A stretch of DNA of 64,000 nucleotides from a virus (taxonomy: Duplodnaviria > Caudoviricetes): positions 569 to 64,568 of the IMG/VR virus record IMGVR_UViG_3300025306_000003. One strand, given 5' to 3'. A program made the position numbers and the translations under genes. The stretch's first letter is position 1. Every line of letters begins with the position of its first letter. Below are positions 23,554 through 42,484 of this stretch, piece by piece. A model generated the notes under the pieces. It saw only the letters and a program-made list of their open reading frames with translations, was not told the origin of the DNA and ran no database searches.

Positions 23554-23741
23554 GAGTACCTCCCATAAATGGATTCGAGAAGCGCAAGCTGCGCGTCTGA
23601 AAGTTTGTGAACTCGGTTGTAAAACTCCTCAATGCTGATCATGGTCGCCAAGTCTTTCTCCGACATGGCACCCGCCAAATCGCGGGACTTAAAAATCCAC
23701 TCAGTTCTCTTCTTCTCCTGCTCAGTCAAAGGTCGGATCAT
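23550..23741 (-). CDS. Hypothetical protein
   Basis: ATGA overlaps; AGGAGG RBS. Confidence 0.55.
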   Translation of the reverse strand: MIRPLTEQEKKRTEWIFKSRDLAGAMSEKDLATMISIEEFYNRVHKLSDAQLALLESIYGRYS

Positions 23742-24880
23742 TCCTGCACCTCCTTAGCAGAATCGTAGTAGTTCAAACCATTACTCAAATACTGCTTGCG
23801 TCGATCATCGGGCGCATGTTGCTGCGCGTACGATTGAACTAATTCCCGATGTTTGTGAACATCAGAACTCGCGAACGCAGTCTCTTTCCTGTCGTGAGGT
23901 TTGTACTCCACAAGCGCTCTGCCCTTGAGATTTGTCTTAACGAGCTTCCGAGCTTCGTCAACGTAGTCGGTAACTTGAAAGCGTATAAAAGCATTTGGCA
24001 GAAAATCTACCAGTGATAACGCCGCAAGATCAGAATCCGTCAACGTCGTAAACAACGGACTGTCGGGGTACTCCACGAATTTTGCAGTACGCTTATCGGT
24101 GTCGATCTCCCAAATGCCCTTTGTGTTCCCCTCATCCCCGAAGTCCATTTGGTACGGAGAACCTGGAATCAAAATAATCTTTCCAATCGGAAATACATCG
24201 CCATCCTGCAACTTCGTGATTTTCTGCAAAGCAGTTTTGTGCTTCCCACGTTTTGACTTGGAACGCCACATGACCTGACCAAGATGGATGTCGCCGCAGA
24301 TACAGAGGTCAACATCATTCGAATTCATGAAGCTGAGAATTGCATCCGCGTCATACCCACCACCTCGGGAGATGTACCCTGTAGGATACGCCGCTCCCAC
24401 AAGGCATTCGTGGATCATGAGAATACGAAAAGCTCGCTCACGCGGAGGCAATTTCTCCGGAGGAGTCCCTGCACCGAAACTGTGGATCTCAGCGTCACCC
24501 TGTGAATCATGACCCTGTGTCCTTACATGAAAAGATCCACTCTGCAAAGCGTGCAACGAATGCACATCACCGCTCTGCAAATATTGATCATGATTACCTG
24601 GAATTGCCAGCACTGTCGGACAGTTGTGATTGAACAAATCATAAACCCGATTGTACAGTGGAACTGGAATCGCGTTCTTTTGCGAGAACAAGTCCCCCGC
24701 TAATAAGTGCAAGTCGGCAGGTTGCTTCAAAAACCATTCGAGGAAGCTCAACCCCACCTCTGCCCTTGTGGAAAGCCCGTCAGATTTTGGTCGGGAGAAC
24801 ATGCCTCCAATTTGCAAATGAGTATCTGCAGTCGCGAGAATTATCATAAGTTCCTCTTCGGATGAACAAGTGAACGCCAC
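23738..24880 (-). CDS. SbcD/Mre11/T4 gp47-like metallophosphoesterase nuclease
   Basis: DTH, GDLF, GNHD, H, GDIH motifs. Confidence 0.9.
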   Translation of the reverse strand: MAFTCSSEEELMIILATADTHLQIGGMFSRPKSDGLSTRAEVGLSFLEWFLKQPADLHLLAGDLFSQKNAIPVPLYNRVYDLFNHNCPTVLAIPGNHDQYLQSGDVHSLHALQSGSFHVRTQGHDSQGDAEIHSFGAGTPPEKLPPRERAFRILMIHECLVGAAYPTGYISRGGGYDADAILSFMNSNDVDLCICGDIHLGQVMWRSKSKRGKHKTALQKITKLQDGDVFPIGKIILIPGSPYQMDFGDEGNTKGIWEIDTDKRTAKFVEYPDSPLFTTLTDSDLAALSLVDFLPNAFIRFQVTDYVDEARKLVKTNLKGRALVEYKPHDRKETAFASSDVHKHRELVQSYAQQHAPDDRRKQYLSNGLNYYDSAKEVQE

Positions 24881-25161
24881 ACACGCAATGGTCGCCTGTG
24901 TGCTGCGGGGCGCTTGGATTCTTGAAAGTCGCCAGTACGTTCGATCAAACTATTCTTCACAGCAAGTCGCATCTGATGACCGAGCGCACTCGGATGCGGA
25001 AACGCTACTGTGTAATTCGAAATGTACATCCACACATCGTCGGTCGTGAAATACTGAAACTCTTTCGCGCACCATTCGACAGCACTCACAAGGATGGCTG
25101 TCCAATCGGGGTCCAACGCTTCGTGAGATTTCTTGATTCCCTCTTCAATGATTTCAGTCAT
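24844..25161 (-). CDS. Hypothetical protein (possible winged HTH)
   Basis: FTTDDVW...ALG...LIERTG...HRRPLRVW. Confidence 0.55.
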   Translation of the reverse strand: MTEIIEEGIKKSHEALDPDWTAILVSAVEWCAKEFQYFTTDDVWMYISNYTVAFPHPSALGHQMRLAVKNSLIERTGDFQESKRPAAHRRPLRVWRSLVHPKRNL

Positions 25162-25376
25162 ACGCGGTTTTTCCTCTCTTACGAGTTATACGAGTTTTCT
25201 TCCCAACAAAAACATCTTCCCAGAAAACGTCTTCGTTGAATGCAGGATCATCCTTCATCAATACATTAATCGTGTCGATCAAGATCGAGTTAAAAATGCT
25301 ACGGGACTGCCCGTCCTTTTTGACCACAGTCTGGTAAGCGTGTCTGAATCCTTTTGCGAGAAGCTGATAATCAGAC

Positions 25377-26336
25377 TCATTCACTCTCAACCTCCTCAGT
25401 TTCAGGTTCAGACTCCCCCTTTTCAACCCCAGCAAGGCCAACCTTGGGGGAGATCCGCACTCTCGCACGTTTGAACGCCACACCAACCTTGTTTTTGACG
25501 TTTGCAATCATAGTTTGAATTGAACCATCGGGGAACTTCTGCATACGCTTTACTGCAACTCGAACAGAACACATATGCAAAAGTGCATGTCCCCCAGGAG
25601 TCTTCAGCTTGTCCCCATACATCACACCAATATTATCCCGAACCTGATTCAAAAAAATCAGCAACACATCGTTATTCGAGATGAATCTACAAAGCGCTTT
25701 CAAATTGGTGGACAACGCCCGAGACAACGCGCCAATACGATGCTTGTCTGTGTAAGATTTAGAATCCAATTCCTCTTTCGTAAGAGTGCAATAAATCGTA
25801 TCCATCACAACCGTGATAAACCCCTCAGGCATGATCTTCCGCGCCTTAAGCACAATGTCCTCAATCATGTCAAAAAATGATTCGACACAGGACTCATCGT
25901 TTGGAAGAATGACGATCAATTTGTCTGGATCCACGCCCATCATCTTTGCCCATTCGGGGTCGTAGCTAAGCTCAGTGTCAAGCAAGATCGCGATTCCACC
26001 AAGTCTTTGCGTTGCGCCCAAAAGGAAGTACGCCAACGAAGACTTCCCGTGAGATTCCATCCCAAATATTTCCAGAAGTTTCCCACAAGGAAGCCCTTGA
26101 CCATCTCTACCCAACACAGCATCGAGTTTAGGCACGCCCGTGGGCATCCAATTTTTCACCTTGCCCACCAACAAGGAAGCCACCTCTTCACCCGCATAAA
26201 TCGGCGCTAAGGACTCTTCCCCATAAATACGCACAATGCTCTCGCGAATTCCTGTGAGCGCCTTCAAAACCTTCGGGTTTTCACCCTGAACCTGTACCTG
26301 CTGTCTCAATCTGCGAATCTTCTTCGGTTTAGGCAT
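25377..26336 (-). CDS. recA: RecA/UvsX-like recombinase
   Basis: PTG..LD, EIFGMESHGKS, DTE, FLNQVR..IGVMYG...TPGGHAL, KNKV. Confidence 0.92.
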   Translation of the reverse strand: MPKPKKIRRLRQQVQVQGENPKVLKALTGIRESIVRIYGEESLAPIYAGEEVASLLVGKVKNWMPTGVPKLDAVLGRDGQGLPCGKLLEIFGMESHGKSSLAYFLLGATQRLGGIAILLDTELSYDPEWAKMMGVDPDKLIVILPNDESCVESFFDMIEDIVLKARKIMPEGFITVVMDTIYCTLTKEELDSKSYTDKHRIGALSRALSTNLKALCRFISNNDVLLIFLNQVRDNIGVMYGDKLKTPGGHALLHMCSVRVAVKRMQKFPDGSIQTMIANVKNKVGVAFKRARVRISPKVGLAGVEKGESEPETEEVESE

Positions 26337-26428
26337 CTAAAACACCTCATAATTGCGTTGTACGGCCTTCTAAGACGGGAAATAGGGGTGCCCGACCCTT
26401 AAGGCACCCCCAGACATCTGAAAAGAAC

Positions 26429-27556: not shown

Positions 27557-27557
27557 A

Positions 27558-28157
27558 CTAACTTATGACCTTTCTGCGCCGGACGCCCGACGCTTCGCGT
27601 TTGAGTTGATCAACATCTGCTCGTGCTGTTGCTTTTGAAGACATGACTTGCATACCGCCCGACTTCTGCTCTGACTGAGCCAAGTAGCCAAGCGTGGTTA
27701 AAATATCAGTGCGTTTGGAAAAGATCTTCTCCGCGAGAGACAAAATTCCCACAGTGAATTCCAGTTCGACGAGTTCTTCTTTTAACCCATCCAAACCGCG
27801 CTGACTTCCGAGATACTGTTCATCCTGCAAAACTTTGGAATCGATCAGTTTCTCGGTGACTTTGAAGCTGCCGTCCTGAGACGCTACAAGCAACTGCTTG
27901 CGATAAAACTCGTTTGTGGTCGCCTCCAGACTCTGGTGTTCACGTTTCGCGATCTCATACGCCAACGTAGCGCGTTCATGCAGACGCACGGCAATTGCGC
28001 TGAGCTTGCCGTACTTCCAATACGACGCGCCATGACGTGTCATCGCGTGTTGCAAATCATCAAGATTCACATCCAAGTCTTCTTCAAACTTGGACTCTTC
28101 GAAAACTTCGGACTCGTCCACAGTGATCAGCGAACGTGCTTTTTGCTGCTGTTTCAT
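27558..28157 (-). CDS. UvsY-like recombination mediator
   Basis: Helical protein with KVTEK.I...V..D..Y, adjacent to SSB and RecA. Confidence 0.6.
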   Translation of the reverse strand: MKQQQKARSLITVDESEVFEESKFEEDLDVNLDDLQHAMTRHGASYWKYGKLSAIAVRLHERATLAYEIAKREHQSLEATTNEFYRKQLLVASQDGSFKVTEKLIDSKVLQDEQYLGSQRGLDGLKEELVELEFTVGILSLAEKIFSKRTDILTTLGYLAQSEQKSGGMQVMSSKATARADVDQLKREASGVRRRKVIS

Positions 28158-28203
28158 CGCCTCACCTCACGGTATCTTGCTGTGTTTCAATTAGGATAGG
28201 AGA

Positions 28204-28238
28204 ATTGTAATCGAAAATTTACGCAAAAGCAACTAAAA
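28204..28238 (-). promoter_or_regulatory. sigma70-type promoter for uvsY-ssb-recA
   Basis: TTGCTT-17-TACAAT, preceded by TTTTAG. Confidence 0.6.
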
Positions 28239-28576: not shown

Positions 28577-28616
28577 GACCTCACTGGAATGGGTCTACTA
28601 CATCCAAGTAGAACTC

Positions 28617-28978: not shown

Positions 28979-29296
28979 CTAATTTACCGCACCCCCTTTC
29001 TTCCGCAACATGTGCTTACGGAGATTCGCATAAAATGCATTCAAGTGTTTCCTGAGAGGTTCCACCATGTACGGTGCGACATTCTCAATTCGTAAAACGC
29101 GCTCCACCAAGTCTTCCCACTGATCCGCATCAATCAGTTTGGAGCATTCTCGACAAGCGCACCAATCCCCTACGGATTCCAACACCAACACCGGCCCGTC
29201 GATAACTTTGTGCGTGCCGGTGATGTACGTTTCCGCAGAGATACGCTTCTCAGCGTCTTTCGGAACCTGCAAGTTACAAAAATCACAATGCAACAT
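28979..29296 (-). CDS. Zinc-binding hypothetical protein
   Basis: CDFC...WCACREC; GGAGG RBS. Confidence 0.6.
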   Translation of the reverse strand: MLHCDFCNLQVPKDAEKRISAETYITGTHKVIDGPVLVLESVGDWCACRECSKLIDADQWEDLVERVLRIENVAPYMVEPLRKHLNAFYANLRKHMLRKKGGAVN

Positions 29297-29587
29297 TTAA
29301 GACCTCCAAGTCTTCTTTTGCCGCGAATGGAAAATCATGATACCCGCGTCGGAACTTGAGAGAAAACCTCCTCCTCGAACAGGAATTGAAAAGAACGTAT
29401 CTGGAATGCCGCACCTGACTACTTGCAACTTTCCAGTATCTGAATTGTAAGCTCTAGCTCTACGAATCATCGCGCCCGAGGGATACGTGATCTCTTCCGG
29501 TTCCAACCACGTACCCAAAATGTCGGAAGGCGCTTCGGTGCGCATACCAAAGTAGTTCGCAACACGCGGACGCGGCTCTTTCCTCAT
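29297..29587 (-). CDS. Hypothetical protein
   Basis: ATGA overlap with the polymerase stop. Confidence 0.55.
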   Translation of the reverse strand: MRKEPRPRVANYFGMRTEAPSDILGTWLEPEEITYPSGAMIRRARAYNSDTGKLQVVRCGIPDTFFSIPVRGGGFLSSSDAGIMIFHSRQKKTWRS

Positions 29588-32500
29588 ACAGCTTCCTCCT
29601 TTTCGAGACTACCCAATGCAATTCCGTATTTCATGTCGGCCTTGATGGGCACTTTGAGTTTCTTTCCCAACCACTTCAACGTATCTGGGTTGTTCATAAT
29701 GTTCTGAACGAATGCCATTTCCTTTTTGAGATATTTCTTCGGGATTTCAAGGTACACAGCGTCGTGCTGCTCCATAATGAATTTGTAATGGTGTGTCGGA
29801 TACGCCTCCAGTAACATCGCGATCTGCACAAGCAAAACGTCGTGCGCCGACGATTGAATCGGCGTATTGATCGCCTGATTCGCGCCATGCTTATCAATCA
29901 CATTGAGGTGTCTGCGTCTGCCAAACAAGTTTTCAACGTAACCATGTTTCTTAGCAAATGCAATCATCCCCCTTTGCCACTTCAGCAATTGTGGGAATCT
30001 TTGATAGTACCGTCTATGAAAATCCGCTACTTCTTGTGGAGACATAGAAAAATTAGAAATTTTCCTGCACAATTGATCATACAATCCATCAGCATCCAAA
30101 CCGTAGGCAGTTCCAAAGTTTACGGATTTTGCTACAGTACGTTGCCAATCTGCCAATTCAGCATCATCAGGCTTTTCACCAAACAAAAATTGACGGGTTT
30201 CCTCATGAAAATCAGCATCATCAATAAAAATCTGAAGCAGGGCTTTATCCTCAGACATCTCAGCCAGCACCCGCATTTCGATCTGGCTGCTGTCAAACTT
30301 GACAAGCACATGTCCGGGGGCTGCTACGAATTGGTCAAGCAATTCCTTTTTCTTTTTAATATTGTGCAACCGATACGAAGCGCGACCTGTATTGTGATTC
30401 ATAACAGCATTGGCAACAAAACCATGTGTTACTGGGACGGTCAAATCATAGACTGGAATAACAGGTCCAGGTTCTCTGTGCATCAACTTCACATAAAGAC
30501 CATCCTTTCTGAAATTGTGCTCTGACCAAGAGCGAGTATGGGGAATCTTCGCACGAAATACCTTAGCAATTCCCGCTTGTTTCTGACTCAAACACCCCAC
30601 CTCAGACAAGTAACGCAGGATTGAATGTCCGGTCACATCCAAGCTGTAATAATAAGGTGCCGTGGCATTTCCAGTCCGTCGAACTGGATGCTTGTACTCT
30701 GTGCGTTTGAAATGGCACCGCACCCCCAAGTTCCAAAGTACTTGCTGAACAATCTCCAATCGGAACTTGTCCAAAGAACGAAACCTGATTAGATACTGTA
30801 AGCATTTCCCATTACGCACAACACACCAGCTACTATCTAGCGAAACCCCACGAACGAATGCACACATCGCTGACTTGTCTCCCCCCAAGATCCACGCAGG
30901 CACGTGCTTCTCCGCCGCACCATTCAAAGGGAAATCCATCAACCATTTAGCAGTAACGTCCTTTCCGGTTATGTGTACGCTGCCATTGCTGGCATCCCAA
31001 GAAGTCTCCCGAGCGTATAAAACCTGAGAAATTGCATTTACACGTTTTAGAACATAAATATCTCTATTTGAAATGGACAAAGAGTAATGTCCCGAATTCT
31101 CCCGGTTTGTGATGTGCCCATCAGACAAAAACATACCCAATAATTCAGCTTCCTCACTAGAACAAGTAGAAACACTTGGGAAGAAATTTGCACCAAATCC
31201 AGTCTGGATGTAATCTGCAGATGTGAGATCGGCTGCCTCCTTCCAGCCCGTTTCTGTCAACAACGGGTGCTCCGGCGTACAGCACAAATGTAGTCCGCAC
31301 CCAAAAGTGAGATTCAACGTCGTGCGCCTCCGCGCAACATACGTATATGAAGTATTTCTAGGACCGTCTGGCGACAAAATCCCAATCCTGCGGGAAACAA
31401 ATCCCTCCTTATGATCACACAAGACATCTGCGAACGCGAGACCCTCGCTGGTCCAAATCAACGTATCTGCAGACACACAGTCGGTTCCGTGAAGAAACAA
31501 CGGAGCACGCGCACGGTCGTCCGCACCCACGATCTCCCAGATACCATCGACAAACGTACCTTTGTCTTTGCTTAGATCCTTGAAATCGGAGAACGCCTCC
31601 AATACAGGATTCTTCACATACTTATTGAGGATCGTGATGACTGGATCAGAAACAGACCAGCGCCCTGTAGGCGTTTTCATGTTTCCGATTTCCTGAATAC
31701 CTTCACGTGGGAGCTTTTTATGGAGCTTCAATCTATCGAATAATGCCGCACCCATCTGTGGACCCGAATTCACGTTGATGCTCGGATCCCCCACGGCCAA
31801 CCTAACCCTGCGTTCCAAATGACGAATACGCTTCTCCAAGTCTTTGGAAAGTTTCTTGGAGTAAGGCATATCAAAACCGATTCCGTTTTTCTCCATCGCT
31901 TCGTATGCACGTGAAACGAATGCGTACAATCTGCCGAGGCGCTGCTGATCTTCTGTCAGATGCGTTCTCTGCTGATCCGCAGCGATATGCGTTACGCACG
32001 CATCCAAACCATTATACTTGCAGAGAAGGTCTTCGGGCACTGAACTGAGGTGCGACATGAATTCAGAATACATCGCATTCGACTCGCGCTTGTACCCCTG
32101 AAGCTTTCTGCGATACTCCACAAACTCGTAATCATAGCCCCCCATCTTGGCGAATCGCGCCGCAACCATGTCCAAGTCATGAATCCCCCTACGTTCGTCC
32201 CACAAATAAGAACCATACATGGTGTCCCATGCATAATTCTCCACATCACAAACGAAAACGCCTTCAAGCATCCCACGATCATAGCCGTTGAAGTTCTGCC
32301 CAACCTTTGCGATCTTGGAGTCTGCCAAAATCTGCTGAAATTTTGCGTAGACCTTAGCGGTAATAAGCCGTCTCGGGACCACAAGCGCTTTGTAATCGTC
32401 ATCGAAGGTCATGGCGATACTCAAGATCTTTGCGCCTTCACCTTCAACGTCTATCGCAGTTTCGCCTTTCACCCAACCCAAAAGCGTCAAAGCCTCATGT

Positions 32501-33858: not shown

Positions 33859-34395
33859 CTACTCCGTACCAACGAATTTCCACCTTCGAAACGTAATAAT
33901 ATTATGAATCGCCGAACAACAAACACCAAATTTACGAGAAAGAGATTTTAGTGTCTCGCCTCCCGAAGAATACAATTTACGAATTTGTATCACCTTGAAA
34001 GATGTTAACTTTGCATAGTGATGTAATTCCCCCGAAGGAGCGTTGCGCCGATTTTTATTGATACAATCTTGATTGTTAATTGCGAAGGTGCCTAGAAATA
34101 AATGTTTTGGATTCACACAAAGCGGAATATCACACTTATGAAGCACACAAAGCCCTTTTGGGATTTTGCCGTTGTGAAGCACCCAAGAAACTCTGTGTGC
34201 ACGAGTTGGTTTGCCAAATTGACCTCCGCTAAAGATGTTGCCATACCCCGATTTGAAAGTCCCCGCAGTCCACAGCCAACAACGAGTTCCCAAAATAGGA
34301 TGGATGGGGCCGTGCTTATTGACTTTTTTCCAAAAACGAACACCCACAGGAACTGGTGGGCGTCCGCGTCTTGAGATACAATTTTGAGCAACCAT
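33859..34395 (-). CDS. Free-standing HNH homing endonuclease with a C-terminal HTH
   Basis: CWLW...GYG...AHRVSW...VLHKCD.P.CVNPKHLFLGT...N. Confidence 0.9.
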   Translation of the reverse strand: MVAQNCISRRGRPPVPVGVRFWKKVNKHGPIHPILGTRCWLWTAGTFKSGYGNIFSGGQFGKPTRAHRVSWVLHNGKIPKGLCVLHKCDIPLCVNPKHLFLGTFAINNQDCINKNRRNAPSGELHHYAKLTSFKVIQIRKLYSSGGETLKSLSRKFGVCCSAIHNIITFRRWKFVGTE

Positions 34396-34934: not shown

Positions 34935-36551
34935 TTATATTGAGAAGAGATTGCTGAGAATGGTATCCTCTTTGTCTCCAGGAACGTGCATGACTTTGCC
35001 GAGCTTGCTCAATTCCTGTACACCATACGCCTCCTCATCTAAAGAATCACCGATGAACACAGGGAACACATCAAACTTCAAACGCTCCCTCTCGTTATTG
35101 AAATGCGCAAGCACAGGACCAGAAATTTGGCAGTCCCCATCCGAAATGAAAATGCAATCAGAGTCTTTTTGATTCTCCAGGTGCGAGAGATATTCCCGCA
35201 ACGGCGGATCAAAGCTTGTGCCCCCACCTGTGAAAGCCCCAAAAAAGATCTCCAAGTCTTTCACAGTTGGAGTCGTGCCTTTAGGAACGATCAGCTTTTT
35301 GCCGACCACGTAATCAAACAACACTGCCACGTAATCGCGCTTCTGCTTAACTGCGATGGACAACAACGCAATACCGACCGCCTTGGCCCACTGCTCACGG
35401 GAATACACATTTGAATTCAATGTGGGATTGCCCTCTGCATCCGTCGAATAGGACTCCTCGCCATTCGGGCACACCATTCCTGTCATAGAACCTGAGCTGT
35501 CTAACGCGACGAAGACTGGCCCCTGACCCTTTGAGTCGGTGCCTCTCAATTCATATTGAGTGAGCTTTGCGTCAAGAAAATCCTTGTAGAAAATGTCCTC
35601 CAAATCAGGGTCTTCCAGTTTGATAAACTCTTCGGGAACCACGTCTGCCAGAATATTTCCCAGCTCGATCCCCTCAACTTCAGTGCGAATGTATTCGACT
35701 TTCTCCGACTGCTTACGCTCTGCAATCGCGATCATCCTGCCAGCCAACCGCGCCAACTTGTGAAGATCAGGCATACTGTGAACCTTGTGCGCCAACTTCA
35801 TACGCTCTTGCAAGCTAACCTTTGTTTCCGTTCCAACACCTGTGCCCCACCCGAATGCTTCGGATAATTCCTGGTTGGCATCCACCTCCTCTTGAGCCTT
35901 CTGCAACTCCTTTCGAACGATCCTGCGGATCTTGCCAGCGTTGTTTTTGAGCGACTTTTGCAATTTCTTTTGTGCGACTTGCTTATCTTTGACCTTCTTC
36001 TCGGCCTCAGGCACGTCTGCAGGATCACCTTTATCGAGCAAATCGTCCAAGTCTTTCTGAATTGAATCGACTTTGTTTTGCCCATCGCGCACTTCTTTTG
36101 GCAGCTTCTTAAAGGCTTCTTCCACAGCGATCAATGCACCAACAGCGTTGATCTCATCGCCTCTGGAAAACGCCCTGAGGTGTTGATACTCAGGAAGGCC
36201 CATGACTGATTCGATCACCTGCGCGTTGGCGCTACGCGCTTCAGGAACTTCATCAAGTATTTTCGGAGCATACTTGTAGAAGATCCCGAAGCCGTCTGTC
36301 ATAAGATCCCGAAATGGCTGAGACTGCTTCCCCATCTGCGCCATCATATGTGGATGCATTTTGACAAGGGACGAAAACAATTCCTTATCCATTGTATCCA
36401 CATTGGTAGTGTACTTCGCGACACCCTCTCGGGCGTCCGTTCCAATCGGCACACCATCCTCGTCCACAAGTTCCTGCTCAGGGTCGTTCTGAGCAAGAAC
36501 CTGTTTCGGAGTCGGCGGGACCGGAGCAATCATCCGTCTGCGTCTTCGCAT
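34935..36551 (-). CDS. ViaA-like von Willebrand factor A domain protein
   Basis: MIDAS LDSSGSM, GGGTSF, ISDG; directly downstream of the MoxR ATPase. Confidence 0.88.
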   Translation of the reverse strand: MRRRRRMIAPVPPTPKQVLAQNDPEQELVDEDGVPIGTDAREGVAKYTTNVDTMDKELFSSLVKMHPHMMAQMGKQSQPFRDLMTDGFGIFYKYAPKILDEVPEARSANAQVIESVMGLPEYQHLRAFSRGDEINAVGALIAVEEAFKKLPKEVRDGQNKVDSIQKDLDDLLDKGDPADVPEAEKKVKDKQVAQKKLQKSLKNNAGKIRRIVRKELQKAQEEVDANQELSEAFGWGTGVGTETKVSLQERMKLAHKVHSMPDLHKLARLAGRMIAIAERKQSEKVEYIRTEVEGIELGNILADVVPEEFIKLEDPDLEDIFYKDFLDAKLTQYELRGTDSKGQGPVFVALDSSGSMTGMVCPNGEESYSTDAEGNPTLNSNVYSREQWAKAVGIALLSIAVKQKRDYVAVLFDYVVGKKLIVPKGTTPTVKDLEIFFGAFTGGGTSFDPPLREYLSHLENQKDSDCIFISDGDCQISGPVLAHFNNERERLKFDVFPVFIGDSLDEEAYGVQELSKLGKVMHVPGDKEDTILSNLFSI

Positions 36552-36563: not shown

Positions 36564-38503
36564 CTAAAAGGAGAATCCAATACAGTCCTTAATAATATCA
36601 CGTTGCATCTTGAGAAGTTGCGCCTGAATATCTTCGATCTTGCGATCTTTACGAAGCTTGCCAGCGTCCGCAATGAGCTTTTTCAGCTTCTCATTGCTTT
36701 CTATCCCCACGTCGGACTTTTTCGAGTCCATCGCGTTTTTATGGACCTCGGAAGCTTTGTCCAAAATATCCAGTGCGAGTTGAATGTCGGGCGAGACCAT
36801 CTGCAAGATGATTCTGGACGAAACCTTGATGTCGGCAGGTTTCTCCCACAACACGTGCTGCAGAATCGAGAACTCCTCAGCAGTCACTTGATCCTTGCCA
36901 TTCAAGAACGCTTCCGCCTGCAGGACTTTCTTACTCTCACGCCAACGCCTAGGCGAAAACGTCAAACCTTCAGTTTTCAGCTTGCCACGAAGATCTCGGC
37001 ACAAAGACGGCACCTGAGAAGCGTCTACAGCATCGACTGCGACCCAAGCTTTTTCCAAGTCTTTCATTGGAATCATGCCAGGACAACCCTGGATCCTCAC
37101 TGTGGTCATCATCTTTTCGAAGTTCGAATCGTCGATGATGTCACCTACCGGATACCTGAGAATCAGCCTATCGTACAACGCGGCCAACTCCTGAGACTCT
37201 GGCAGTTCATTCGACGCCGCGAACATAGACACCAACGGGGTCTGCAAAATTTCATCGCCGTTGAAAAAGAGTCGCCGCTCGTCCAACAACGCCAATAACG
37301 AATTGAGTAAAGAACCTGTGGCTTTGAAACCTTTGTGTTAGCTTACGTTCGCACGTAAGAGCAGACTATATCTTCATCTTGATTCTGGCTTTCTCTTGCC
37401 AACGGATACGGGCACAACATCGTACACATCGCCCATGACTTTCGTGCCTACGCTCTGTCGTGTTGCAAATAATACAAGCATCATAATGAAACGCCCACCG
37501 ACCCGCATACTTACTTTTCAAAGCAGCACACAATTCCTGTCGATGACGCAACAAATGACACCCACGACAAAACCCCATCAACCTCTCAGGCGAATGTCCA
37601 GGAGTCAAACCCAAAGATTCGTAAGATCTCCCATCGCCATCCAGATGATGCACTACGGTAGCTTTCGCACCACAGTCAAAACATCTGCCCCAAGTCTTTT
37701 TGAAAATCTCAACTCGCAAAATTCCAAAATGCCGAAGTTCACGTTTGAGCTTTTCCTTTCGCCTGAAAGCCTTATCTAATCGCAGTACGGCATAACACTC
37801 CCGCGACCTTTCAATCAGGTGTTGACGGTGCTTCTGATAATACTTTTTGTAATAGTCGGGATCAGATGGTTTTCCGCCCATAGCGTTCTCCTTATGCTTT
37901 GAATAGCATAACAGAAAACACTAAGGATTTCAAGAGCAAGGCGTGTAGTCGTTGAGGGGCCAATCACGGCTTCCCTGCGGATTTTCTGCACCCAAACATT
38001 TTTACCGACATCCGGTGATAAGCCTCGGTAGTTTAGGATACTCAGACGTTCCCGCATACAGCCCTGTTACGTATCGCAAGTCACCCTGCGAGTGAGTCCG
38101 TAAAGTCAAACTCATCCAAGAACGCAAAATGCACAGAGGGGAACATGCCATCAATATTCCGACGATAGACATCCTTCTTGAGACCGGACAAGCGGATGGG
38201 ACCAAAGAGATCTTCGGGTTTGGTGAACTTGTTCACAAGGTGCTCGAAGTACGCAGAGTCCGCGAACGTCTCACAGACCTTTTCAACCAACAGGGATTTG
38301 GTCACGCCCTTCGGGCCAATCTGAAAGTGGTGCTTCTGTGCCAGCACCGCAACCATCGCGCCGTGCAGGACTTCGGTGCGCTCCACAAACTGATCATCCA
38401 AAGCACTCACAGCAGCATTGAAATGCGTGTACAGTTTGCCATTACCATTCGAAGACACATTGCGGACCTTGCGGACATGAGAGGAACTTTTTTTGCCTAT
38501 CAT
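36564..38503 (-). CDS. MoxR/RavA-like AAA+ ATPase, spliced (exon 1 38503-38109, exon 2 37329-36564; ~386 aa)
   Basis: GPKGVTKS Walker A, EDLFGP, FLDE|(F)FKA...LLN.LL..LDER, ASNELP, ALYDR, SPRRW. Confidence 0.88.
37330..38108 (-). ncRNA. Group I intron (~779 nt) in the MoxR gene
   Basis: Minus strand: P UGCGGGAA, Q AAUCCGCAG, R CUCAACGACUA, S AAGAUAUAGUC; P9 CUUACGU-GCGA-ACGUAAG; terminal G; P1 UGAGUU/GACUCA with a U.G pair at the splice site; splicing restores the frame. Confidence 0.9.
37366..37881 (-). CDS. Intron-encoded HNH homing endonuclease
   Basis: CFDC...VHHLDG...CRGCH plus a C-terminal Cys finger; lies between the R and S elements. Confidence 0.82.
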   Translation of the reverse strand: MGGKPSDPDYYKKYYQKHRQHLIERSRECYAVLRLDKAFRRKEKLKRELRHFGILRVEIFKKTWGRCFDCGAKATVVHHLDGDGRSYESLGLTPGHSPERLMGFCRGCHLLRHRQELCAALKSKYAGRWAFHYDACIICNTTERRHESHGRCVRCCARIRWQEKARIKMKI

Positions 38504-38639
38504 ATACTCTCCTAAGTTTAGGTTAAATGTTTCCAAGTCTTTTCTGGAGAGAGGTTCACGAAACCCCTTGAGTAAGGCACTCTAGGGTGTCGCCTTATTT
38601 AAGCGCCAAGCGCTGATTCGCGAACCTCTCACAACTCAA

Positions 38640-39062
38640 TTACTGAACTCTGCTGCTTGCGGGTTTCGCCTGAGTAAGATCTTTCTTTGAGACCTTCCGA
38701 CGGGATTTCTCAACAGTGACCCTATTACCCAAAGTCTCGAACACAAAAGAGGCATGCTTCACAAGCGCCTGTTCGACCAACTCATCCAAATTAGTCTCGT
38801 ACCCATTCTGGGACATCGACCGCAGTGCATCTTGCATAAGCAACGCCCCACAAGACGCCAAGCACAGAGTGTACATGATACCGTCCATAAACTTCCGATC
38901 ACTATCGGAGAGAGGCTGCAACGCTTCCTTACACGCATCCGCCAAGTTCGACAACTGCTGCCTATCGGCACCGTTAAGATGCGGAATAAGCAACAACATA
39001 ATATCATCCAGCTTCATACTACCTCCCCCGCAGCTTTGGGTTGACCTTCGTATAACCGCCAT
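38640..39062 (-). CDS. Hypothetical early protein (probable start at MKLDD)
   Basis: GGAGGT RBS. Confidence 0.55.
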   Translation of the reverse strand: MAVIRRSTQSCGGGSMKLDDIMLLLIPHLNGADRQQLSNLADACKEALQPLSDSDRKFMDGIMYTLCLASCGALLMQDALRSMSQNGYETNLDELVEQALVKHASFVFETLGNRVTVEKSRRKVSKKDLTQAKPASSRVQ

Positions 39063-39528
39063 CGTAGCACTCGCCTTCGAGAATCTCCACCAAGTCTTTC
39101 AAACTGGTTTGCACGTTCTCGATTTGATCCAGAACATCTTCGACCGTTTGCTCTTCGTTGCGATAGCCCAAGATGGTATTGAGCGTTCTGCTAAGACAGG
39201 ACACCGTAGCACTCAACGTGGTTTCTTCACTAGACGAAGCCCACGTGCTCCCGTCAGGGTAGACGGCCGCTGAAGTTTTCCTCCTGCTGATGCCAGGCTT
39301 TTTGGCTTTGATAAAGTTCTTTTTCGAAGCGGTAGCACCTTTTTTGACAACCGCTTTTTTGATTGGGTGTCTTTTGACGAGCATGATTTGATCTCCTTTT
39401 TGAAGAGAAGTTTGTAACCGAAGTTTCTGACTGCCCATGCGGTCAGCATGGACTTGCTTTCCTGAATGATGATATCGTTGACCATCGTGGAACGATTCCC
39501 CTTTCCCCGTTTGAGATTCTCGGGCCAA
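39019..39528 (-). CDS. Hypothetical protein with a basic N-terminus (probable start at MLVKR, ~39384)
   Basis: AAGGAG RBS. Confidence 0.55.
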   Translation of the reverse strand: MARESQTGKGESFHDGQRYHHSGKQVHADRMGSQKLRLQTSLQKGDQIMLVKRHPIKKAVVKKGATASKKNFIKAKKPGISRRKTSAAVYPDGSTWASSSEETTLSATVSCLSRTLNTILGYRNEEQTVEDVLDQIENVQTSLKDLVEILEGECYDGGYTKVNPKLRGR

Positions 39529-39725
39529 GAGTCTATGACGCGAGAGTTATCCTGCCAGTTACCCCCAAGGTGATTGGTTGCCGCAAAAGCCTCTTCGATG
39601 GTCTCAGCCTTAACCTCAGCAACCAACACATACGGCACCCAGGGATCAAAATTCTGCTCCAAAAACCTGAAGTCTTTTACAAGCTTCTGGTGAAGCACTA
39701 ACCAAATTGCCATACCAACCTCCAA
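39213..39725 (-). CDS. Hypothetical early protein
   Basis: IEEAF..TN...W...RSTMVNDII motif; GGAGG RBS. Confidence 0.55.
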   Translation of the reverse strand: MEVGMAIWLVLHQKLVKDFRFLEQNFDPWVPYVLVAEVKAETIEEAFAATNHLGGNWQDNSRVIDSWPENLKRGKGNRSTMVNDIIIQESKSMLTAWAVRNFGYKLLFKKEIKSCSSKDTQSKKRLSKKVLPLRKRTLSKPKSLASAGGKLQRPSTLTGARGLRLVKKPR

Positions 39726-39777
39726 GTCTTCTGTGGCCCCCTCGTCGTGAGGGGGCCGATGGATTGAATTGAAACCT

Positions 39778-40212
39778 CTAGGACTCCAACTCTTTCGAAG
39801 CGTCCACGAGGTAGAGGCGAACGCGGTTGCGAACGTCGCTCGCCAGCTTCAAACTGGCAGTGCCATCCTCAACTGCCTTGTCCCACGATCCCAACAGGGG
39901 CTCAACCTTACGGACAACGACTGACCACGCGCTGTTGATCATATCGTCGATGGCGTTGATCATGGCGCGGTCGGTCGGGGTGAGTTCCTTCACCGCCGAA
40001 GTCTCGGGAGCCTTGGGGCGACGCACCGGAGCCTCGATAACGGCCTCGACAACCTGCTTCCCAGGCTTGGTGCGCTTGATCGCAGGGTTGATCGCGGGAG
40101 CGGGAGAAGCCTTCACAACTGCCTTCGCCTTCACCGAAGTCTTCACAACGGCCTTGTTCGTTGCCTTGTTGATCTTGCCGATTACATGCGCTACGCTATT
40201 GCTGATTTTCAT
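39778..40212 (-). CDS. Lys/Ala/Pro-rich early protein
   Basis: Low-complexity basic N-terminus; strongly biased codon usage. Confidence 0.65.
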   Translation of the reverse strand: MKISNSVAHVIGKINKATNKAVVKTSVKAKAVVKASPAPAINPAIKRTKPGKQVVEAVIEAPVRRPKAPETSAVKELTPTDRAMINAIDDMINSAWSVVVRKVEPLLGSWDKAVEDGTASLKLASDVRNRVRLYLVDASKELES

Positions 40213-40653
40213 ATGTTCCCCTTTTCTTCTTTTTGAAAGTGAGTTGAACTACCGCTCTTCGAAGCGGTCCATTCGCCTATCGTCTTCGCGATAAGCGGAT
40301 GAAACGCTTGGGGCGCGACCTCTCAGCCGCGCCCCTCTTACTTACCGCATTAGTATTTCCCTGAGTCTCTTTGCATCTTGTCAAGATGGTCTCAATTCGA
40401 GACTCGCGCCTTTTCGCGGCGCACGGGCATAGACAATATCCTCCAAGTATTTTCAATCGTCACACGTAACCATTCGAGCCATCATAACCCCAACCCTAAT
40501 TCCCCGACACCTCTTTTTGGACGGGGACTTCGTGAATCGCAATCACATAGCATCGCGCACAGAGTTGAACCAACATACCCCGAAGCAGTTTCGGGAATTT
40601 GACCTCTACCTTGTTGCATCTCCTGCAAAGTCTTTTCAATCGCATAAAAACCC

Positions 40654-40929
40654 CTAAGACAAACAATTGTGTTTGTGATAAAACTTCCGACCCCGCTGTT
40701 CGACGTTCTCGTCGTCTGGATCAATTGCCTGAAAGCACCATTCGCACCGAAGCAACAAGTGCCCCCGCAATACGGGGAGCTTCTTGCCTCGGAGATTCTT
40801 GCGAATCCTCGCAATGACCATCATGCCTTCTTCCCGCGTCAAACCATCCTTCTTCATCAAAGCCTTCAGATGATCACCCCAACCTTCTGCAATAAATCTA
40901 CGCTCTGCAATCGACATAAAGTTCTCCAA
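40654..40929 (-). CDS. Hypothetical zinc-finger protein
   Basis: CEWC...YHKHNC. Confidence 0.5.
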   Translation of the reverse strand: MENFMSIAERRFIAEGWGDHLKALMKKDGLTREEGMMVIARIRKNLRGKKLPVLRGHLLLRCEWCFQAIDPDDENVEQRGRKFYHKHNCLS

Positions 40930-40982
40930 GTCTTTCTTACGTTATGGGGGCGAGACCACCCCGCCCCCAAGGCCGTTACCAA

Positions 40983-41255
40983 CTACGCCATCAACTTCTT
41001 CCCAAGCTGCTTCTTGAACTTAGGCCAACTGGTTGCGATCAGGTCCATCACGTCGGGGCCGATCCGCTTCATGGGCCAAGTGCGAACGGAACCGAACGCA
41101 TCGGGGGAACTCTTCCCCATGACCGCGATCTTGGGTTTGCCTCCGTCATAGGACATCAGCGCGAGTACCACTTCGTAGTCCTCGATGTTGCCGACCGTAA
41201 TGGTCGCGATCACTTTGTCTTTTGAAGCATCAAAAGCATTTGCGAATCTTGCCAT
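40983..41255 (-). CDS. PC4/YdbC-like putative ssDNA-binding protein; first gene after the long leader
   Basis: Start MARF after a GAGGTG RBS; FDASKDKVI...SYDGGKPKI...KRI. Confidence 0.55.
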   Translation of the reverse strand: MARFANAFDASKDKVIATITVGNIEDYEVVLALMSYDGGKPKIAVMGKSSPDAFGSVRTWPMKRIGPDVMDLIATSWPKFKKQLGKKLMA

Positions 41256-42184
41256 ACTATTCACCTCTTCTTTTTGGATGATGGTTGAAAATCCGAGTCT
41301 TTTACCAGACCGTACCAACATGGTGCAGCCATTTCGGGGCTCACGTGCGTCACCGTCGTGGAAGCCCCGTACATCGCCGCTCATATCGTCTGTTTGGATT
41401 GTGTCCTAAAGGTAGGTTTTTTGATTTGAGTGAGGTTTATCCTATGGACCCTCACTGACATTCGTTTCTGTGCCATCGCGCACAATGAGCAATGTTGAAC
41501 TCATGCAGATTCTACTTGGTTGCCTTCAAGGGAGATATTCACTGAGATCAACGTGTGACGCCTAGCGGCCAATCCACGTCTCTCATCTCACTGCGCCAAT
41601 CCTTTCCCTAACACCCTTCAAGCTTGTTCGTCCTCGCCGGACTTCCACCTGTCGGAGTTTCGCTCACGGGATTTAGCGTCTCAAGGTCTTTCGTATCGGA
41701 GTACTGCGACCCCTGCCGTGTTTGTTTCAACACGGACTTTCCTCACTATCGCTGAGTCACGCCAAGTCTTTTTTCCGATCCCTCGCGGGCATCTCGCCCA
41801 CTTGATCGATTAGACTCTGCGCTAACCTGCTACCCGATTTGCTATGTCGGGAAAAATGTTTGTACGGGTTCTCAGGACTTCTCGTGGCATCTCAAGGATG
41901 CTATCCTTGCCCTCTTGTCAGACTCACCGTCCAGAAGTGGCAATCAGAACCAAGCGCCCAAGTCTTTTTCGTTGCGGCCTCGCCAATCGCCCTAGTCCCA
42001 AAACATCCCTTGTCGGCGTCATCCATGCGGGTCCACCGCTCTGGACTTTTTGGTTTCGAAAGAGGTGAATGTTCGACCCCTTTCAAGGGTTGTGGGCTCG
42101 TCCCAGCGGGCTCTCACTCCCACATCCCTCCCACTTGAATCAGATTCAAGCTCCATTTCGAGCGTACACTCTAGTGGAAGTGTA

Positions 42185-42219
42185 ATAGTAACATACCGTA
42201 TGTCTATAGTCAACTAAAA
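42185..42219 (-). promoter_or_regulatory. Strong sigma70-type early promoter
   Basis: TTGACT(42213-42208)-17-TACTAT(42190-42185) with extended TG, AT-rich upstream sequence, and palindrome ACATAC-C-GTATGT in the spacer. Confidence 0.8.
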
Positions 42220-42484
42220 AGATGAAATAAAATGAGCTTGCTACTATAAGAGTAGTAATAAGACATTTCACACAGCGAAACGCTAAGAATGAAATCACGT
42301 TTCACACAGTAAAACGCAGATCTCCAAGTCTTTTTACTTCGAAATCACGTCCCACAATCGGAGCACTGAGCGTCTTCCGAACCAGAGCAAGCTTCGCAGT
42401 ACATCTTGCCGCAGTCCTCGCACCCACACAGTTCATCGGGATTTACAAACTCCCCGCACACATCACAGAGACCTTCGGTCTGAC

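What the first reader, a model, noticed from the sequence alone, without database searches (positions are those of the whole stretch)
23648..42333. Strand-polarised motif AAGACTTGG concentrated in the early/middle region: stoperator-, antiterminator- or Chi-like system
Seen: at least 17 copies of a non-palindromic 9-10-mer, where ~0.25 would be expected per strand for a 9-mer at uniform composition. All read AAGACTTGG in the direction of transcription; I saw none reversed and none beyond 42.4 kb. Sixteen lie in 23.6-42.3 kb, densest near the early promoter. They occur in non-coding DNA (41762, 41958, 42324), just before RBSs (1784, 29306, 38533, 39722, 40926), and inside genes in two different frames (KDL and KTW), including the intron HNH. 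One-mismatch copies also precede other genes (33153, 33832). Established analogies: mycobacteriophage stoperators, boxA-type antitermination sites, Chi sites. Inference: a genome-wide binding site for a phage or host factor, at DNA or RNA level.
Basis: partly seen in the sequence, partly recalled or inferred. Interest (0 to 1): 0.78.

Follow-up and report, generated by a model that had tools for sequence, protein, structure and literature searches.

The report
One-strand DNA word array, phage replication arm
An uncultured freshwater phage writes the exact nine-letter DNA word AAGACTTGG 18 times on one strand and never on the other, almost all within one 19-kb stretch of replication genes; it most resembles the programmed single-strand cut sites of a few cultured phages, but what reads it is not yet shown.

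Summary
AAGACTTGG occurs 18 times on the gene strand and 0 times on the other (shuffles give 0.55). 17 copies lie in 23648-42332. It is the commonest 9-mer on that strand and survives a protein-preserving codon shuffle (11 in-gene copies against 1.5).

The array starts 13 nt after the primase operon. There are no copies in the 21.7 kb upstream (P=3e-9). It crosses a terminator and a new promoter.

It is not a promoter half-site: no partner element is found, and host sigma-70-type promoters already serve the block. The held 80% of the genome has no integrase, HTH_3 repressor, NusG homologue, ligase or DxDxD polymerase.

In form it best matches the proven nick sites of Pseudomonas phage tf (exact 9-mer, 14:0 strand bias, early half, about 1 per 3.3 kb). 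I rate programmed nicking most likely (0.30). Rivals are a Chi-like signal (0.20), a stoperator-like roadblock (0.17), a single-element promoter (0.12) and an RNA-level site (0.08).

Nothing here tests nicking directly. No relative was reachable, the host is unknown, and the runs are held only as contigs. This scan has noted similar one-way words in early regions of other uncultured phages.

The parts
42324..42332 (-). Copy 1. Non-coding, 13 nt after the stop of the last primase-operon gene, 6 nt before the first of two palindromes, about 110 nt upstream of the -35 of the strong promoter. Long form AAAAAGACTTGG.
41958..41966 (-). Copy 2, in the about 920-nt untranslated leader. Long form AAAAAGACTTGG.
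41762..41770 (-). Copy 3, in the leader. Long form AAAAAGACTTGG.
40926..40934 (-). Copy 4: GC-rich hairpin, 10 nt, word, GGAG overlap, ATG of gene A 8 nt after the word. Absent, together with gene A, from the X2 variant, which keeps a one-mismatch copy at the same junction.
39722..39730 (-). Copy 5: GC-rich hairpin, 4 nt, word overlapping GGAGG, ATG 8 nt after the word.
39090..39098 (-). Copy 6, 72 nt before the start at 39017. Not inside a confidently called gene.
38533..38541 (-). Copy 7, non-coding, 29 nt before the start of MoxR exon 1.
37690..37698 (-). Copy 8, inside the ORF that lies within the intron splitting the MoxR gene (frame K-T-W).
37055..37063 (-). Copy 9, inside MoxR exon 2 (x-D-L-x frame).
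36047..36055 (-). Copy 10, inside the vWA gene (x-D-L-x frame).
35252..35260 (-). Copy 11, inside the vWA gene (x-D-L-x frame).
31836..31844 (-). Copy 12, inside the UDG-PolA gene, 2248 nt before the next start codon.
29306..29314 (-). Copy 13, at the end of gene 29297-29587, overlapping GGAGG. ATG of the next gene is 9 nt after the word.
29107..29115 (-). Copy 14, inside gene 28979-29296.
28073..28081 (-). Copy 15, inside gene 27558-28157. It lies downstream of the strong terminator 28576-28553 and of a new sigma-70-type promoter, that is, in a second transcription unit.
25999..26007 (-). Copy 16, inside the UvsX/RecA-like gene (third frame, x-R-L-G).
23648..23656 (-). Copy 17, the last of the array, inside small gene 23550-23741 after SbcD.
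1784..1792 (-). Outlier copy, 40.6 kb downstream of the onset. It overlaps GGAGG 7 nt before the ATG at 1776 and lies about 190 nt downstream of the TopIB gene. It may be chance: 0.17 expected in 45 kb at uniform composition (my arithmetic).
42185..42213 (-). Strong host-type promoter (TTGACT, 17 nt with TG, TACTAT) that starts the leader and the early genes. No copy of the word overlaps it.
42263..42317 (-). Two 21-nt near-identical palindromes (86% alike) between copy 1 and the promoter. They could be tandem terminators of the primase operon or operators.
33859..34395 (-). Free-standing HNH endonuclease inside the array. This is a candidate nickase by inference only.
   Evidence: PF13392, E 9.3e-13; no match among solved structures
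51918..52469 (-). Phage sigma factor with regions 2 and 4. It is a candidate reader under the promoter rival.
1979..2959 (-). Type IB topoisomerase. It is a candidate reader only under the novel case.

Best explanation
The word is a DNA-level, strand-specific recognition site for a phage-encoded enzyme. The most likely mechanism is programmed single-strand nicking, meaning 'localized single-strand interruptions' of the kind proven in Pseudomonas phage tf and known in T5 and phiKMV-like phages. On this reading a site-specific nickase cuts the sense strand at or in AAGACTTGG late in infection. The candidate is one of the phage's HNH endonucleases, for example 33859-34395. The packaged DNA would then carry about 17 nicks along its replication/recombination arm, and a host ligase would seal them after entry. 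A further inference concerns function. This phage has UvsX, UvsW, SSB and SbcCD, so nicks could be converted by fork run-off into ends that start recombination-dependent replication and that promote exchange of gene cassettes. Shown here: the array, its polarity, its selection at nucleotide level and its geometry. Inferred: the nick itself, the enzyme and the function.
For: (1) The form matches tf (PMC3517423: abstract, passages and Discussion read). tf has an exact asymmetric 9-mer (11 identical copies plus 3 with one substitution), 14 on the top strand and 0 on the bottom, 11 of 14 in the left half, and 14 per 46.3 kb. Here the counts are 18:0, 17 of 18 in one 18.7-kb arm, and 18 per 64.6 kb. 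The spacing at tf's dense end, taken from its Table 1 percentages, is about 0.7-1.4 kb; here the first ten intervals average 707 nt. (2) The word is selected on the DNA whatever the frame or coding status. It has no partner element. (3) The array follows position, not gene class or operon. There are 0 copies in the 21.66 kb upstream (P=2.8e-9), although that stretch holds two sigma-70-driven replication operons. The array continues across terminator 28576-28553 and a new promoter. (4) The gene content is that of a virulent phage. No integrase or HTH_3 repressor is found, and HNH endonucleases are present, one of them inside the array. (5) The word looks private to this phage. That favours a phage-encoded reader over a host-encoded one. 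(6) An indel variant has one end beside copy 40926, as expected if such sites promote recombination.
Against: There is no direct evidence of a nick. All four runs that hold the phage are kept as contigs, which cannot show molecule ends. No nickase is identified; HNH_3 is only a family match and has no solved relative by sequence. The held 80% of the genome has no DNA ligase, though I did not establish that tf-like phages have one. One-mismatch copies occur on both strands (25 vs 10), whereas in tf all 17 variants are on one strand. The confinement (17 of 18 copies in 29% of the contig) is more extreme than in tf. Nicking does not explain why 4 copies overlap a Shine-Dalgarno sequence at 7-9 nt from ATG (3 of 17 in the block, P=0.004). 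It does not explain why two copies follow GC-rich hairpins, or why the X2 variant keeps a near-copy at the same junction. 'Cheap accommodation' next to a needed GGAG is possible but ad hoc. Conservation in relatives, a key argument in tf, could not be tested.
Confidence: 0.3

Rival explanations
1. Chi-like signal. The word, or its complement CCAAGTCTT, is recognised by a host RecBCD/AddAB-type helicase-nuclease (or a phage enzyme) that enters at a DNA end or rolling-circle tail near 42.4 kb and travels along the arm. A dense series near the entry point switches the enzyme from degradation to recombination.
For: There is a published precedent (PMC12315714, passages read). [quoted passage not shown] Phage MD8 has 32:0. 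Here the word is strictly polar, frame-independent and top-ranked. It has a sharp onset at a point beside the helicase/primase genes and a long non-coding region. It thins downstream at 8, 3, 4, 2 copies per 5 kb. The array ignores operon boundaries.
Against: The two Chi words in that paper are 8 nt; this one is 9-10 nt exact and not G-rich. In that paper abundant Chi goes with absence of anti-RecBCD or recombination modules, whereas this phage has UvsX, UvsW, SSB and SbcCD. No genome end is known near 42.4 kb, and assemblies run through it. The within-block gradient is not significant (KS P=0.14). No other phage in the scans shows the word as an array, and there is no enrichment in 1.11 Mb of other loci, which is weak evidence against a host-wide word. 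The host is unknown, so the defining test was impossible.
Confidence: 0.2
2. Stoperator-like roadblock or other regulator site. A phage DNA-binding protein binds the asymmetric word inside transcribed DNA and, in this orientation only, blocks or modulates elongating host RNA polymerase, shutting down the early/middle arm later in infection.
For: All copies lie in the sense orientation in DNA that host-type promoters transcribe. The length of 10-12 bp with degenerate near-copies (10 vs 3 in the block) is typical of a protein site. Non-coding DNA is preferred (7 of 17 copies vs 16% of the DNA, P=0.013). The first ten intervals are evenly spaced (CV 0.42, P=0.003, a post hoc subset). The X2 variant keeps a near-copy at a diverged hairpin-to-start junction.
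Against: The held 80% has no integrase and no HTH_3 repressor, with working controls. No copy overlaps the promoter at 42213-42185 as an operator would; copy 1 lies about 110 nt upstream of it. Two similar sigma-70 operons just upstream have no copy. 10 of 17 copies are inside genes.
Confidence: 0.17
3. Single-element promoter. The word is read by host core polymerase carrying the phage sigma (51918-52469), or by a phage polymerase encoded in the missing 20% of the genome. Transcripts would start a few bases downstream, giving leaderless or near-leaderless mRNAs at the four copies that sit 7-9 nt before ATG.
For: A phage sigma is encoded. There is a precedent: phiEco32 gp36 reads a single 9-bp element, tAATGTAtA, with starts 6-8 bp downstream (PMC8948821, passages read). 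P23-45, another phage with a giant tape measure, has two phage polymerases each with its own short motif (PMC10770324), and the tape-measure gene here is cut off by the contig end. Two copies follow hairpins directly before genes.
Against: The same paper ties the single element to gp36 lacking region 4, while the sigma of phage 7-11, which has region 4, reads a bipartite promoter. The sigma here has region 4 above cut-off, and no partner element exists. No called protein has a DxDxD motif. The PF00940 search found nothing, but its controls were silent, so it is uninformative. Apart from the 4 copies beside starts, distances to the next start look random (29 to 2248 nt). Ordinary sigma-70-type promoters already serve the block. 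The late genes, where a phage sigma would be expected to act, have no copy.
Confidence: 0.12
4. RNA-level site. The word is read in the mRNA, either as an operator for a translational repressor or activator at ribosome-binding sites, or as a cleavage site for a sequence-specific endoribonuclease that separates cistrons after protective hairpins.
For: 4 copies and at least 2 near-copies (40443 and the X2 variant) overlap GGAG at 7-9 nt before ATG. The hairpin-word-start architecture occurs at 40926 and 39722. All copies are on the transcribed sense strand.
Against: 10 of 17 copies are inside genes far from starts, with no in-frame start after them. The flanks have no conserved structure. No phage transcript carries a complementary seed (4 vs 8.6 expected, none in the leader). 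No listed run holding the phage is RNA, so expression could not be examined.
Confidence: 0.08

Closest known systems
Localized single-strand interruption (nick) sites of Pseudomonas phage tf and LUZ24-like phages; also T5/BF23 and phiKMV-like phages (PMC3517423)
   Same: Both are exact, non-palindromic 9-nt words found on one strand only (14:0 in tf, 18:0 here). The overall density is similar (1 per 3.3 kb vs 1 per 3.6 kb). Both are concentrated in the early half with about 1-kb spacing at the dense end. Both are in virulent-type phages, and in both the enzyme and the function are unknown.
   Different: The word is different (TACT/RTGMC in tf, R/GCGCRGG in T5). No nick has been shown here. One-mismatch copies occur on both strands here but on one strand only in tf. 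The confinement to one arm is stronger here. Several copies are fused to ribosome-binding sites. The phage lineage is unrelated: an uncultured freshwater siphovirus-like phage with a giant tape measure, with best protein identities to cultured phages of 28% or less.
Terminally clustered Chi sites of lambdoid phages LLS and MD8 (PMC12315714)
   Same: Both are exact short words, top-ranked among k-mers, with extreme strand bias (20:3 and 32:0) and regional clustering at about 1 per 1-2 kb.
   Different: There the word is the host's known 8-nt Chi, the phages are temperate and lack recombination or anti-RecBCD genes, and the cluster sits at a defined cos end. Here the host, the genome ends and any host-wide enrichment are unknown, the word is 9-10 nt, and the phage has its own recombination genes.
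Stoperators of cluster A mycobacteriophages (L5 gp71, Bxb1).
   Same: Both are asymmetric sites of about a dozen base pairs, dozens per genome, in one orientation relative to transcription and inside transcribed DNA.
   Different: No repressor, integrase or operator-on-promoter copy is found here. Most copies here are inside genes. The array covers one arm only.
Single-element promoters of phage sigma factors (phiEco32 gp36; PMC8948821)
   Same: Both involve a single 9-bp word with no second element, and a phage-encoded sigma is present.
   Different: gp36 lacks region 4, whereas the sigma here has it. phiEco32 has 6 such promoters before middle and late genes. Here 10 of 17 copies lie inside genes and none lies before a late gene.
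PeSL (promoter-early stem-loop) cassettes of T4-type phages.
   Same: A stem-loop followed by a short conserved signal sits directly before small early genes, and a strain variant has gained or lost one gene cassette at such a junction.
   Different: Only 2 or 3 of 17 copies have the hairpin. The word is not a sigma-70 promoter. Most copies are not at cassette boundaries.

Membership tests
Phage nick (sci) sites, tf/T5/phiKMV type | Exact or near-exact asymmetric consensus present on one strand only | tested here: met
   18 vs 0 exact copies. However, one-mismatch copies are 25 vs 10, whereas in tf 17 of 17 are on one strand.
Phage nick (sci) sites, tf/T5/phiKMV type | Physical, ligase-repairable nick in packaged DNA at the site | not testable with these tools
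   All 4 runs are held as contigs, and the table of molecule ends is empty.
Phage nick (sci) sites, tf/T5/phiKMV type | Uneven distribution, densest in one (early, first-packed) half of the genome | tested here: met
   17 of 18 copies lie in 18.7 kb. KS test against uniform over the 42.3 kb downstream of the onset gives P=1e-4. Which end is packed first is unknown.
Phage nick (sci) sites, tf/T5/phiKMV type | Word and positions conserved in related phages | tested here: inconclusive
   The nearest relatives (PolA 37-46% identical) could not be fetched. The 80 distant loci have at most 2 copies each.
Chi sites | The word is the host's Chi: over-represented and strand-skewed in the host chromosome and recognised by its RecBCD/AddAB | not testable with these tools
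   The host is unknown. 81 unrelated metagenome and genome loci hold 11 copies vs 8.5 expected, which says nothing about the true host.
Chi sites | Orientation and clustering defined relative to a DNA end open to the nuclease | tested here: inconclusive
   The onset at 42332 is sharp, but no end is known there, and the contigs run through it.
Chi sites | In phages, abundance goes with lack of anti-RecBCD or recombination genes (PMC12315714) | tested here: not met
   UvsX, UvsW, SSB, SbcC and SbcD are present. An anti-RecBCD gene cannot be recognised or excluded.
Stoperators (cluster A mycobacteriophages) | A cognate immunity repressor in a temperate phage | tested here: not met
   No PF00589 integrase and no PF01381 HTH in six frames of the held 80%; controls rang in 14 of 14 genomes. 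Other repressor folds were not excluded.
Stoperators (cluster A mycobacteriophages) | The same site also acts as an operator overlapping the early promoter | tested here: not met
   No copy overlaps 42185-42213. The nearest copy (42324) is about 110 nt upstream.
Stoperators (cluster A mycobacteriophages) | Asymmetric sites in one orientation relative to transcription, within transcribed DNA | tested here: met
   All 18 are in the sense orientation. Because every gene near them is on the same strand, transcription polarity cannot be separated from DNA polarity.
Single-element sigma promoters (phiEco32 gp36 type) | A phage sigma without region 4 | tested here: not met
   Sigma70_r4 scores 33.0 bits (cut-off 24.1) and r4_2 scores 29.3 bits (cut-off 25.7) in the 183-aa sigma.
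Single-element sigma promoters (phiEco32 gp36 type) | Sites lie upstream of genes, with transcript starts 6-9 nt downstream | tested here: inconclusive
   4 of 18 copies end 7-9 nt before an ATG. The other 14 lie 29-2248 nt from the next start. There are no RNA data.
Bipartite (ECF-type or activator-box) promoters | A second conserved element at fixed spacing | tested here: not met
   No column beyond -1 to +10 is informative. The best gapped k-mer has p about 1e-4 over 4096 tests.
boxA/nut-type antitermination sites | A conserved box followed by a hairpin in the leader RNA, plus Nus-type factors | tested here: not met
   There is no conserved downstream hairpin or flank. Most copies are not in leaders. 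No NusG-family gene is found.
Poxvirus-type TopIB cleavage sites | Pentamer (C/T)CCTT on the scissile strand (PMC2666729) | tested here: not met
   The complement CCAAGTCTT shares only the last 3 of the 5 letters. A TopIB gene is present but is closest to the Deinococcus enzyme, and that paper reports relaxed or undefined specificity for the bacterial enzymes.

The most novel reading that the evidence does not exclude
The word, read as CCAAGTCTT on the complementary strand, is the docking or cleavage site of the phage's own type IB topoisomerase. That gene sits among the head genes, and the only copy outside the array lies about 190 nt downstream of it. The enzyme would be delivered with the DNA and would act at a dense series of sites on the arm that holds the strongest host-type promoter. 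It would relieve the torsional stress of early transcription or replication on partly constrained DNA. This would be a bacteriophage counterpart of the virion-packaged, sequence-specific poxvirus topoisomerase. A wider version: the one-way words that this scan keeps finding in early regions of unrelated uncultured phages are one undescribed class of signals that mark the early arm for a phage-supplied DNA enzyme.
Probability: 0.05. Interest if true: 0.85.

Novelty: new variant of a known kind. Interest (0 to 1): 0.55.

Why it matters
Exact, one-strand word arrays are among the clearest signs that a machine reads phage DNA directionally. Only three kinds have been explained by experiment: nick sites, Chi clusters and stoperators. 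For nick sites, neither the enzyme nor the purpose is known, decades after T5. This array is unusually clean (18:0, robust to codon controls). It is dense and sharply bounded, and it lies in a lineage with no cultured relative. It also sits in the same genome as a small set of candidate readers: HNH nucleases, a TopIB and a sigma factor. If it proves to be a nick-site set, it extends programmed nicking to a new phage group. It would also offer a tractable pairing of word and enzyme, and a possible link to recombination-dependent replication. If it is Chi-like, it reveals the Chi word of an unknown freshwater host. This scan has noted similar arrays in other uncultured phages, so a single explanation could apply widely.

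Tried and rejected
Relatives. The vWA protein has no close homologue. TerL, vWA and PolA match cultured phages at 28% identity or less. P0005 is not in viral contigs.

The dense hits were tandem coding repeats or a paralogue family. The best dispersed cases (L027 and L117, 4 copies each, and homologous to each other) are within what multiple testing allows (the estimate is mine).

Read data. No RNA holder is listed. All four runs are contigs of nearly identical strains, so there was no conservation test and no information on molecule ends.

Phage polymerase. No DxDxD motif is found. PF00940 was silent, but so were its controls. I could not compare the word with the P23-45 promoter logos, because figures and supplements are not held.

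Bipartite or activator-box promoter: rejected (a by-eye check of the downstream stretches printed found a TAnnnT-like hexamer at a suitable distance in 2 of 18).

sRNA target: rejected.

Known RNA in the 920-nt leader: none, even at E<=1. My recalled resemblance of one 12-mer to RNase P RNA has no support.

Extended anti-Shine-Dalgarno pairing, internal translation starts, primase sites, DnaA/IHF-type boxes, uptake sequences and KOPS-like signals were considered by eye or from memory only, and I dropped them for lack of any fit.

Identity of the T5 or tf nickase: nothing found (search; passages of one preprint). Supplements of the tf, LLS and P23-45 papers (site tables, logos) were not opened and may bear on the comparisons.

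Full report
OBSERVATION. AAGACTTGG occurs 18 times in the window, every time on the - strand. 100 dinucleotide-preserving shuffles gave a mean of 0.55 and a maximum of 3. The whole 64,568-b record, an IMG/VR contig estimated 80% complete, gives the same 0 forward and 18 reverse; the backwards-read control gives 0 and 1. An unbiased k-mer count shows it is the commonest 9-mer on the gene strand (18 vs 0). AGACTTGG is 19 vs 0 and AAAGACTTGG is 14 vs 0. One-mismatch copies number 25 on the gene strand and 10 on the other. Inside 23.6-42.4 kb they number 10 and 3. 17 of the 18 exact copies lie in 23648-42332 and one lies at 1784.

CONTROLS. I permuted synonymous codons within each gene while keeping every protein. 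This leaves 1.53 +/- 1.17 in-gene copies (maximum 7 in 1000), against 11 observed. Permuting codon order leaves 0.60 +/- 0.80. In the block, all 7 of 7 [K/E/Q]-D-L-[G/A/V/D/E] peptide words, 2 of 2 KTW and 1 of 1 x-R-L-G are spelled with the word. Outside it the figures are 1 of 3 and 0 of 4. The in-gene copies use all three frames. The enrichment is therefore selected on the nucleic acid and is not a by-product of codon usage or protein sequence.

CONTEXT. Nearly all genes are on the - strand. The exception is a probable strand switch near 1370. Read in the gene direction, the order is as follows. First comes a tape-measure gene cut off by the contig end, a 1535-aa protein with no family match, and small genes. 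Next come a sigma factor with regions 2 and 4 (51918-52469), an endolysin and an fn3 protein. Then come a UvsW-like helicase, an unassigned 468-aa ORF, a DnaB-like helicase and a primase. A non-coding stretch of about 1 kb follows, and after it small genes of no known family. Then come a MoxR ATPase split by an ORF-bearing insert, its vWA partner, an HNH endonuclease and a UDG-PolA with an intein. After these come SSB, a UvsX/RecA-like recombinase, SbcD, SbcC, a ParB-like nuclease and an aminotransferase. Last come the large terminase and a type IB topoisomerase. The best identities to cultured phages are 28% or less. Runs holding the sequence are freshwater or lake metagenomes. Host-type promoters are plain to see. 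One is TTGACT-17-TACTAT, with an extended TG, at 42213-42185. Others, read by eye from the printed intergenic regions, precede the helicase operon, the primase operon, the intron ORF and gene 27558-28157. A strong canonical terminator lies at 28576-28553.

ANATOMY OF THE SITES. The consensus is R (A 14, G 4 of 18), then AAGACTTGG, then a (11 of 18), then g (13 of 18). No other column between -25 and +35 carries information, apart from a weak T at +18 (12 of 18). A gapped search for a second element on either side found nothing that survives multiple testing. The three copies in the non-coding region share the longer form AAAAAGACTTGG. In the block, 7 of 17 copies are not fully inside coding sequence, whereas 16% of the DNA is non-coding (P=0.013). 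3 of 17 end 8-9 nt before a start codon (P=0.004), with their last GG opening a GGAG. The outlier at 1784 does the same at 7 nt. Two copies (40926 and 39722) directly follow GC-rich hairpins that lack a T tract. The remaining 10 are inside genes, 94 to 2248 nt from the next start.

A STRAIN VARIANT. In run X2 one contig replaces 40650-40946 with 25 other letters. Read on the gene strand, this removes an 87-aa gene together with copy 40926. It brings the next gene directly behind the same hairpin. The new 25 letters differ from the reference but again contain a one-mismatch copy (AAGACaTGG) followed by GGAG and the start codon. So either the word is kept at this junction despite divergence, or the junction is a place where cassettes are exchanged.

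GEOMETRY. Copy 1 lies 13 nt after the stop of the last gene of the primase operon. It lies before two 21-nt near-identical palindromes and about 110 nt upstream of the strong promoter. No copy lies in the 21.66 kb upstream (P=2.8e-9 at the block's rate), although that stretch holds two sigma-70-driven replication operons. Downstream, the copies per 5 kb are 8, 3, 4, 2, 0, 0, 0, 0, 1. Clustering towards the onset over the 42.3 kb is significant (KS P=1e-4). The decline within the block is not (P=0.14). The first ten intervals are more even than random (mean 707 nt, CV 0.42, P=0.003), but I picked that subset after seeing the data. The array continues past the terminator at 28.55 kb and a new promoter, so it spans at least two transcription units. 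It follows position rather than gene class or operon.

TESTS OF THE READINGS. Promoter: the phage sigma has region 4. In the one system I could read about, a single-element promoter goes with a sigma that lacks region 4, and a region-4 sigma reads a bipartite promoter (PMC8948821). No partner element exists here. No DxDxD polymerase is visible. The T7-type family search was uninformative. Host-type promoters already serve the block.

Stoperator: the held 80% has no integrase, no HTH_3 and no operator copy on the promoter. Antitermination: no conserved flank and no NusG family. RNA target of a phage sRNA: no complementary seed. Known RNA family in the leader: none.

Chi-like: the published LLS and MD8 arrays (20:3 and 32:0, clustered at one end; PMC12315714) look alike in form. 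But the host, any host-wide enrichment and the genome ends are unknown here. This word is also longer than the two 8-nt Chi words in that paper, and the phage has its own recombination genes.

TopIB: the gene is real. The complement of the word shares only 3 of the 5 letters of the poxvirus site, and bacterial homologues are reported as relaxed in preference (PMC2666729). By sequence the enzyme here is nearest to the Deinococcus one.

Nick sites: phage tf carries 14 experimentally proven, ligase-repairable nicks in an exact asymmetric 9-mer. All are on the top strand, and 11 of 14 are in the left half. The same word and similar positions occur in three relatives. T5 and phiKMV-like phages have analogous sites. 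The enzyme and the function are unknown, and the authors expect many more such phages (PMC3517423). In length, exactness, strand exclusivity, overall density and early-half bias, this is the closest match to what I see.

IS THE WORD PRIVATE? None of the 80 loci around distant UDG-PolA genes has more than 2 copies. They gave only tandem repeats, one paralogue family and a chance-level pair of related contigs with 4 copies each. 1.11 Mb of other fetched loci hold 11 copies, with 8.5 expected. This is weak evidence for a phage-encoded reader rather than a host-wide one.

VERDICT. The word is a directional signal on the DNA (or, less likely, the RNA) of one arm of the genome, and its reader is not identified. 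I rank the readings as follows: programmed nick sites 0.30, Chi-like 0.20, stoperator-like or other regulator site 0.17, single-element promoter 0.12, RNA-level site 0.08, TopIB site 0.05, and something else for the rest. The ranking rests on formal resemblance and on exclusions, not on any direct test. The features that nicking explains worst are the fusion of four copies to ribosome-binding sites and the retention of a near-copy in the variant.

This scan has noted comparable one-way words in early regions of other uncultured phages. Those are unverified AI notes, and I do not count them as support. The array is a new variant of a known kind. The decisive experiment is cheap: map strand-specific DNA ends in raw reads or virion DNA.

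Noticed in passing
window 41256-42180 (- strand): About 920 nt after the strongest host-type promoter have no credible ORF and many stems. No Rfam family matches, even at E<=1. One 12-mer reminded me of a conserved RNase P RNA box (recalled), but nothing supports that. Two copies of the word lie inside the stretch.
   Followed up: partly
window 42263-42283 and 42297-42317: Two 21-nt palindromic elements, 86% alike and 34 nt apart, lie between the end of the primase operon and the strong promoter. They may be tandem terminators or binding sites for a regulator.
   Followed up: no
window 51918-52469 (- strand): A phage-encoded sigma-70 family protein of 183 aa with regions 2 and 4 sits next to the endolysin (51468-51899). 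I did not find its promoters; no shared bipartite motif was visible by eye before late genes.
   Followed up: partly
window 40526-40568 and 40650-40946: Strain variation in run X2. There is a 43-nt patch with 12 changed letters, and an indel that removes an 87-aa gene (40654-40917; weak DUF3781 match, below cut-off).
   Followed up: partly
window 29584-33129 (- strand): The DNA polymerase is a fusion of a family-4-type uracil-DNA glycosylase domain, a 3'-5' exonuclease and PolA, and is interrupted by an intein with a LAGLIDADG-like insert. UDG-PolA fusions without the intein are common in metagenomic phage contigs.
   Followed up: partly
window 15-1356 (+ strand): [quoted passage not shown] No portal or major capsid gene was recognised anywhere in the contig.
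   Followed up: no
L199 and L192 (distant UDG-PolA phage loci, GC 61-63%): Their commonest dispersed 9-mers share the core CCACACC and are strand-biased, 9:2 and 8:2. This may be an analogous polar word in another lineage.
   Followed up: no
L083 (IMG/VR contig of 94 kb): Ten tandem paralogous small genes each end with the same roughly 40-nt block, which happens to contain the word and overlaps the next gene's start. This is a paralogue family, not a dispersed signal.
   Followed up: partly
window 34139-34332: Several short, low-identity contigs from runs X1 and X2 lie on part of the HNH gene with 11-13 differences. Related HNH genes probably exist in other members of the same communities.
   Followed up: no
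window 45746-47152 (- strand): A 468-aa ORF between the UvsW-like and DnaB-like helicase genes has no Pfam match at E<=0.01.
   Followed up: no
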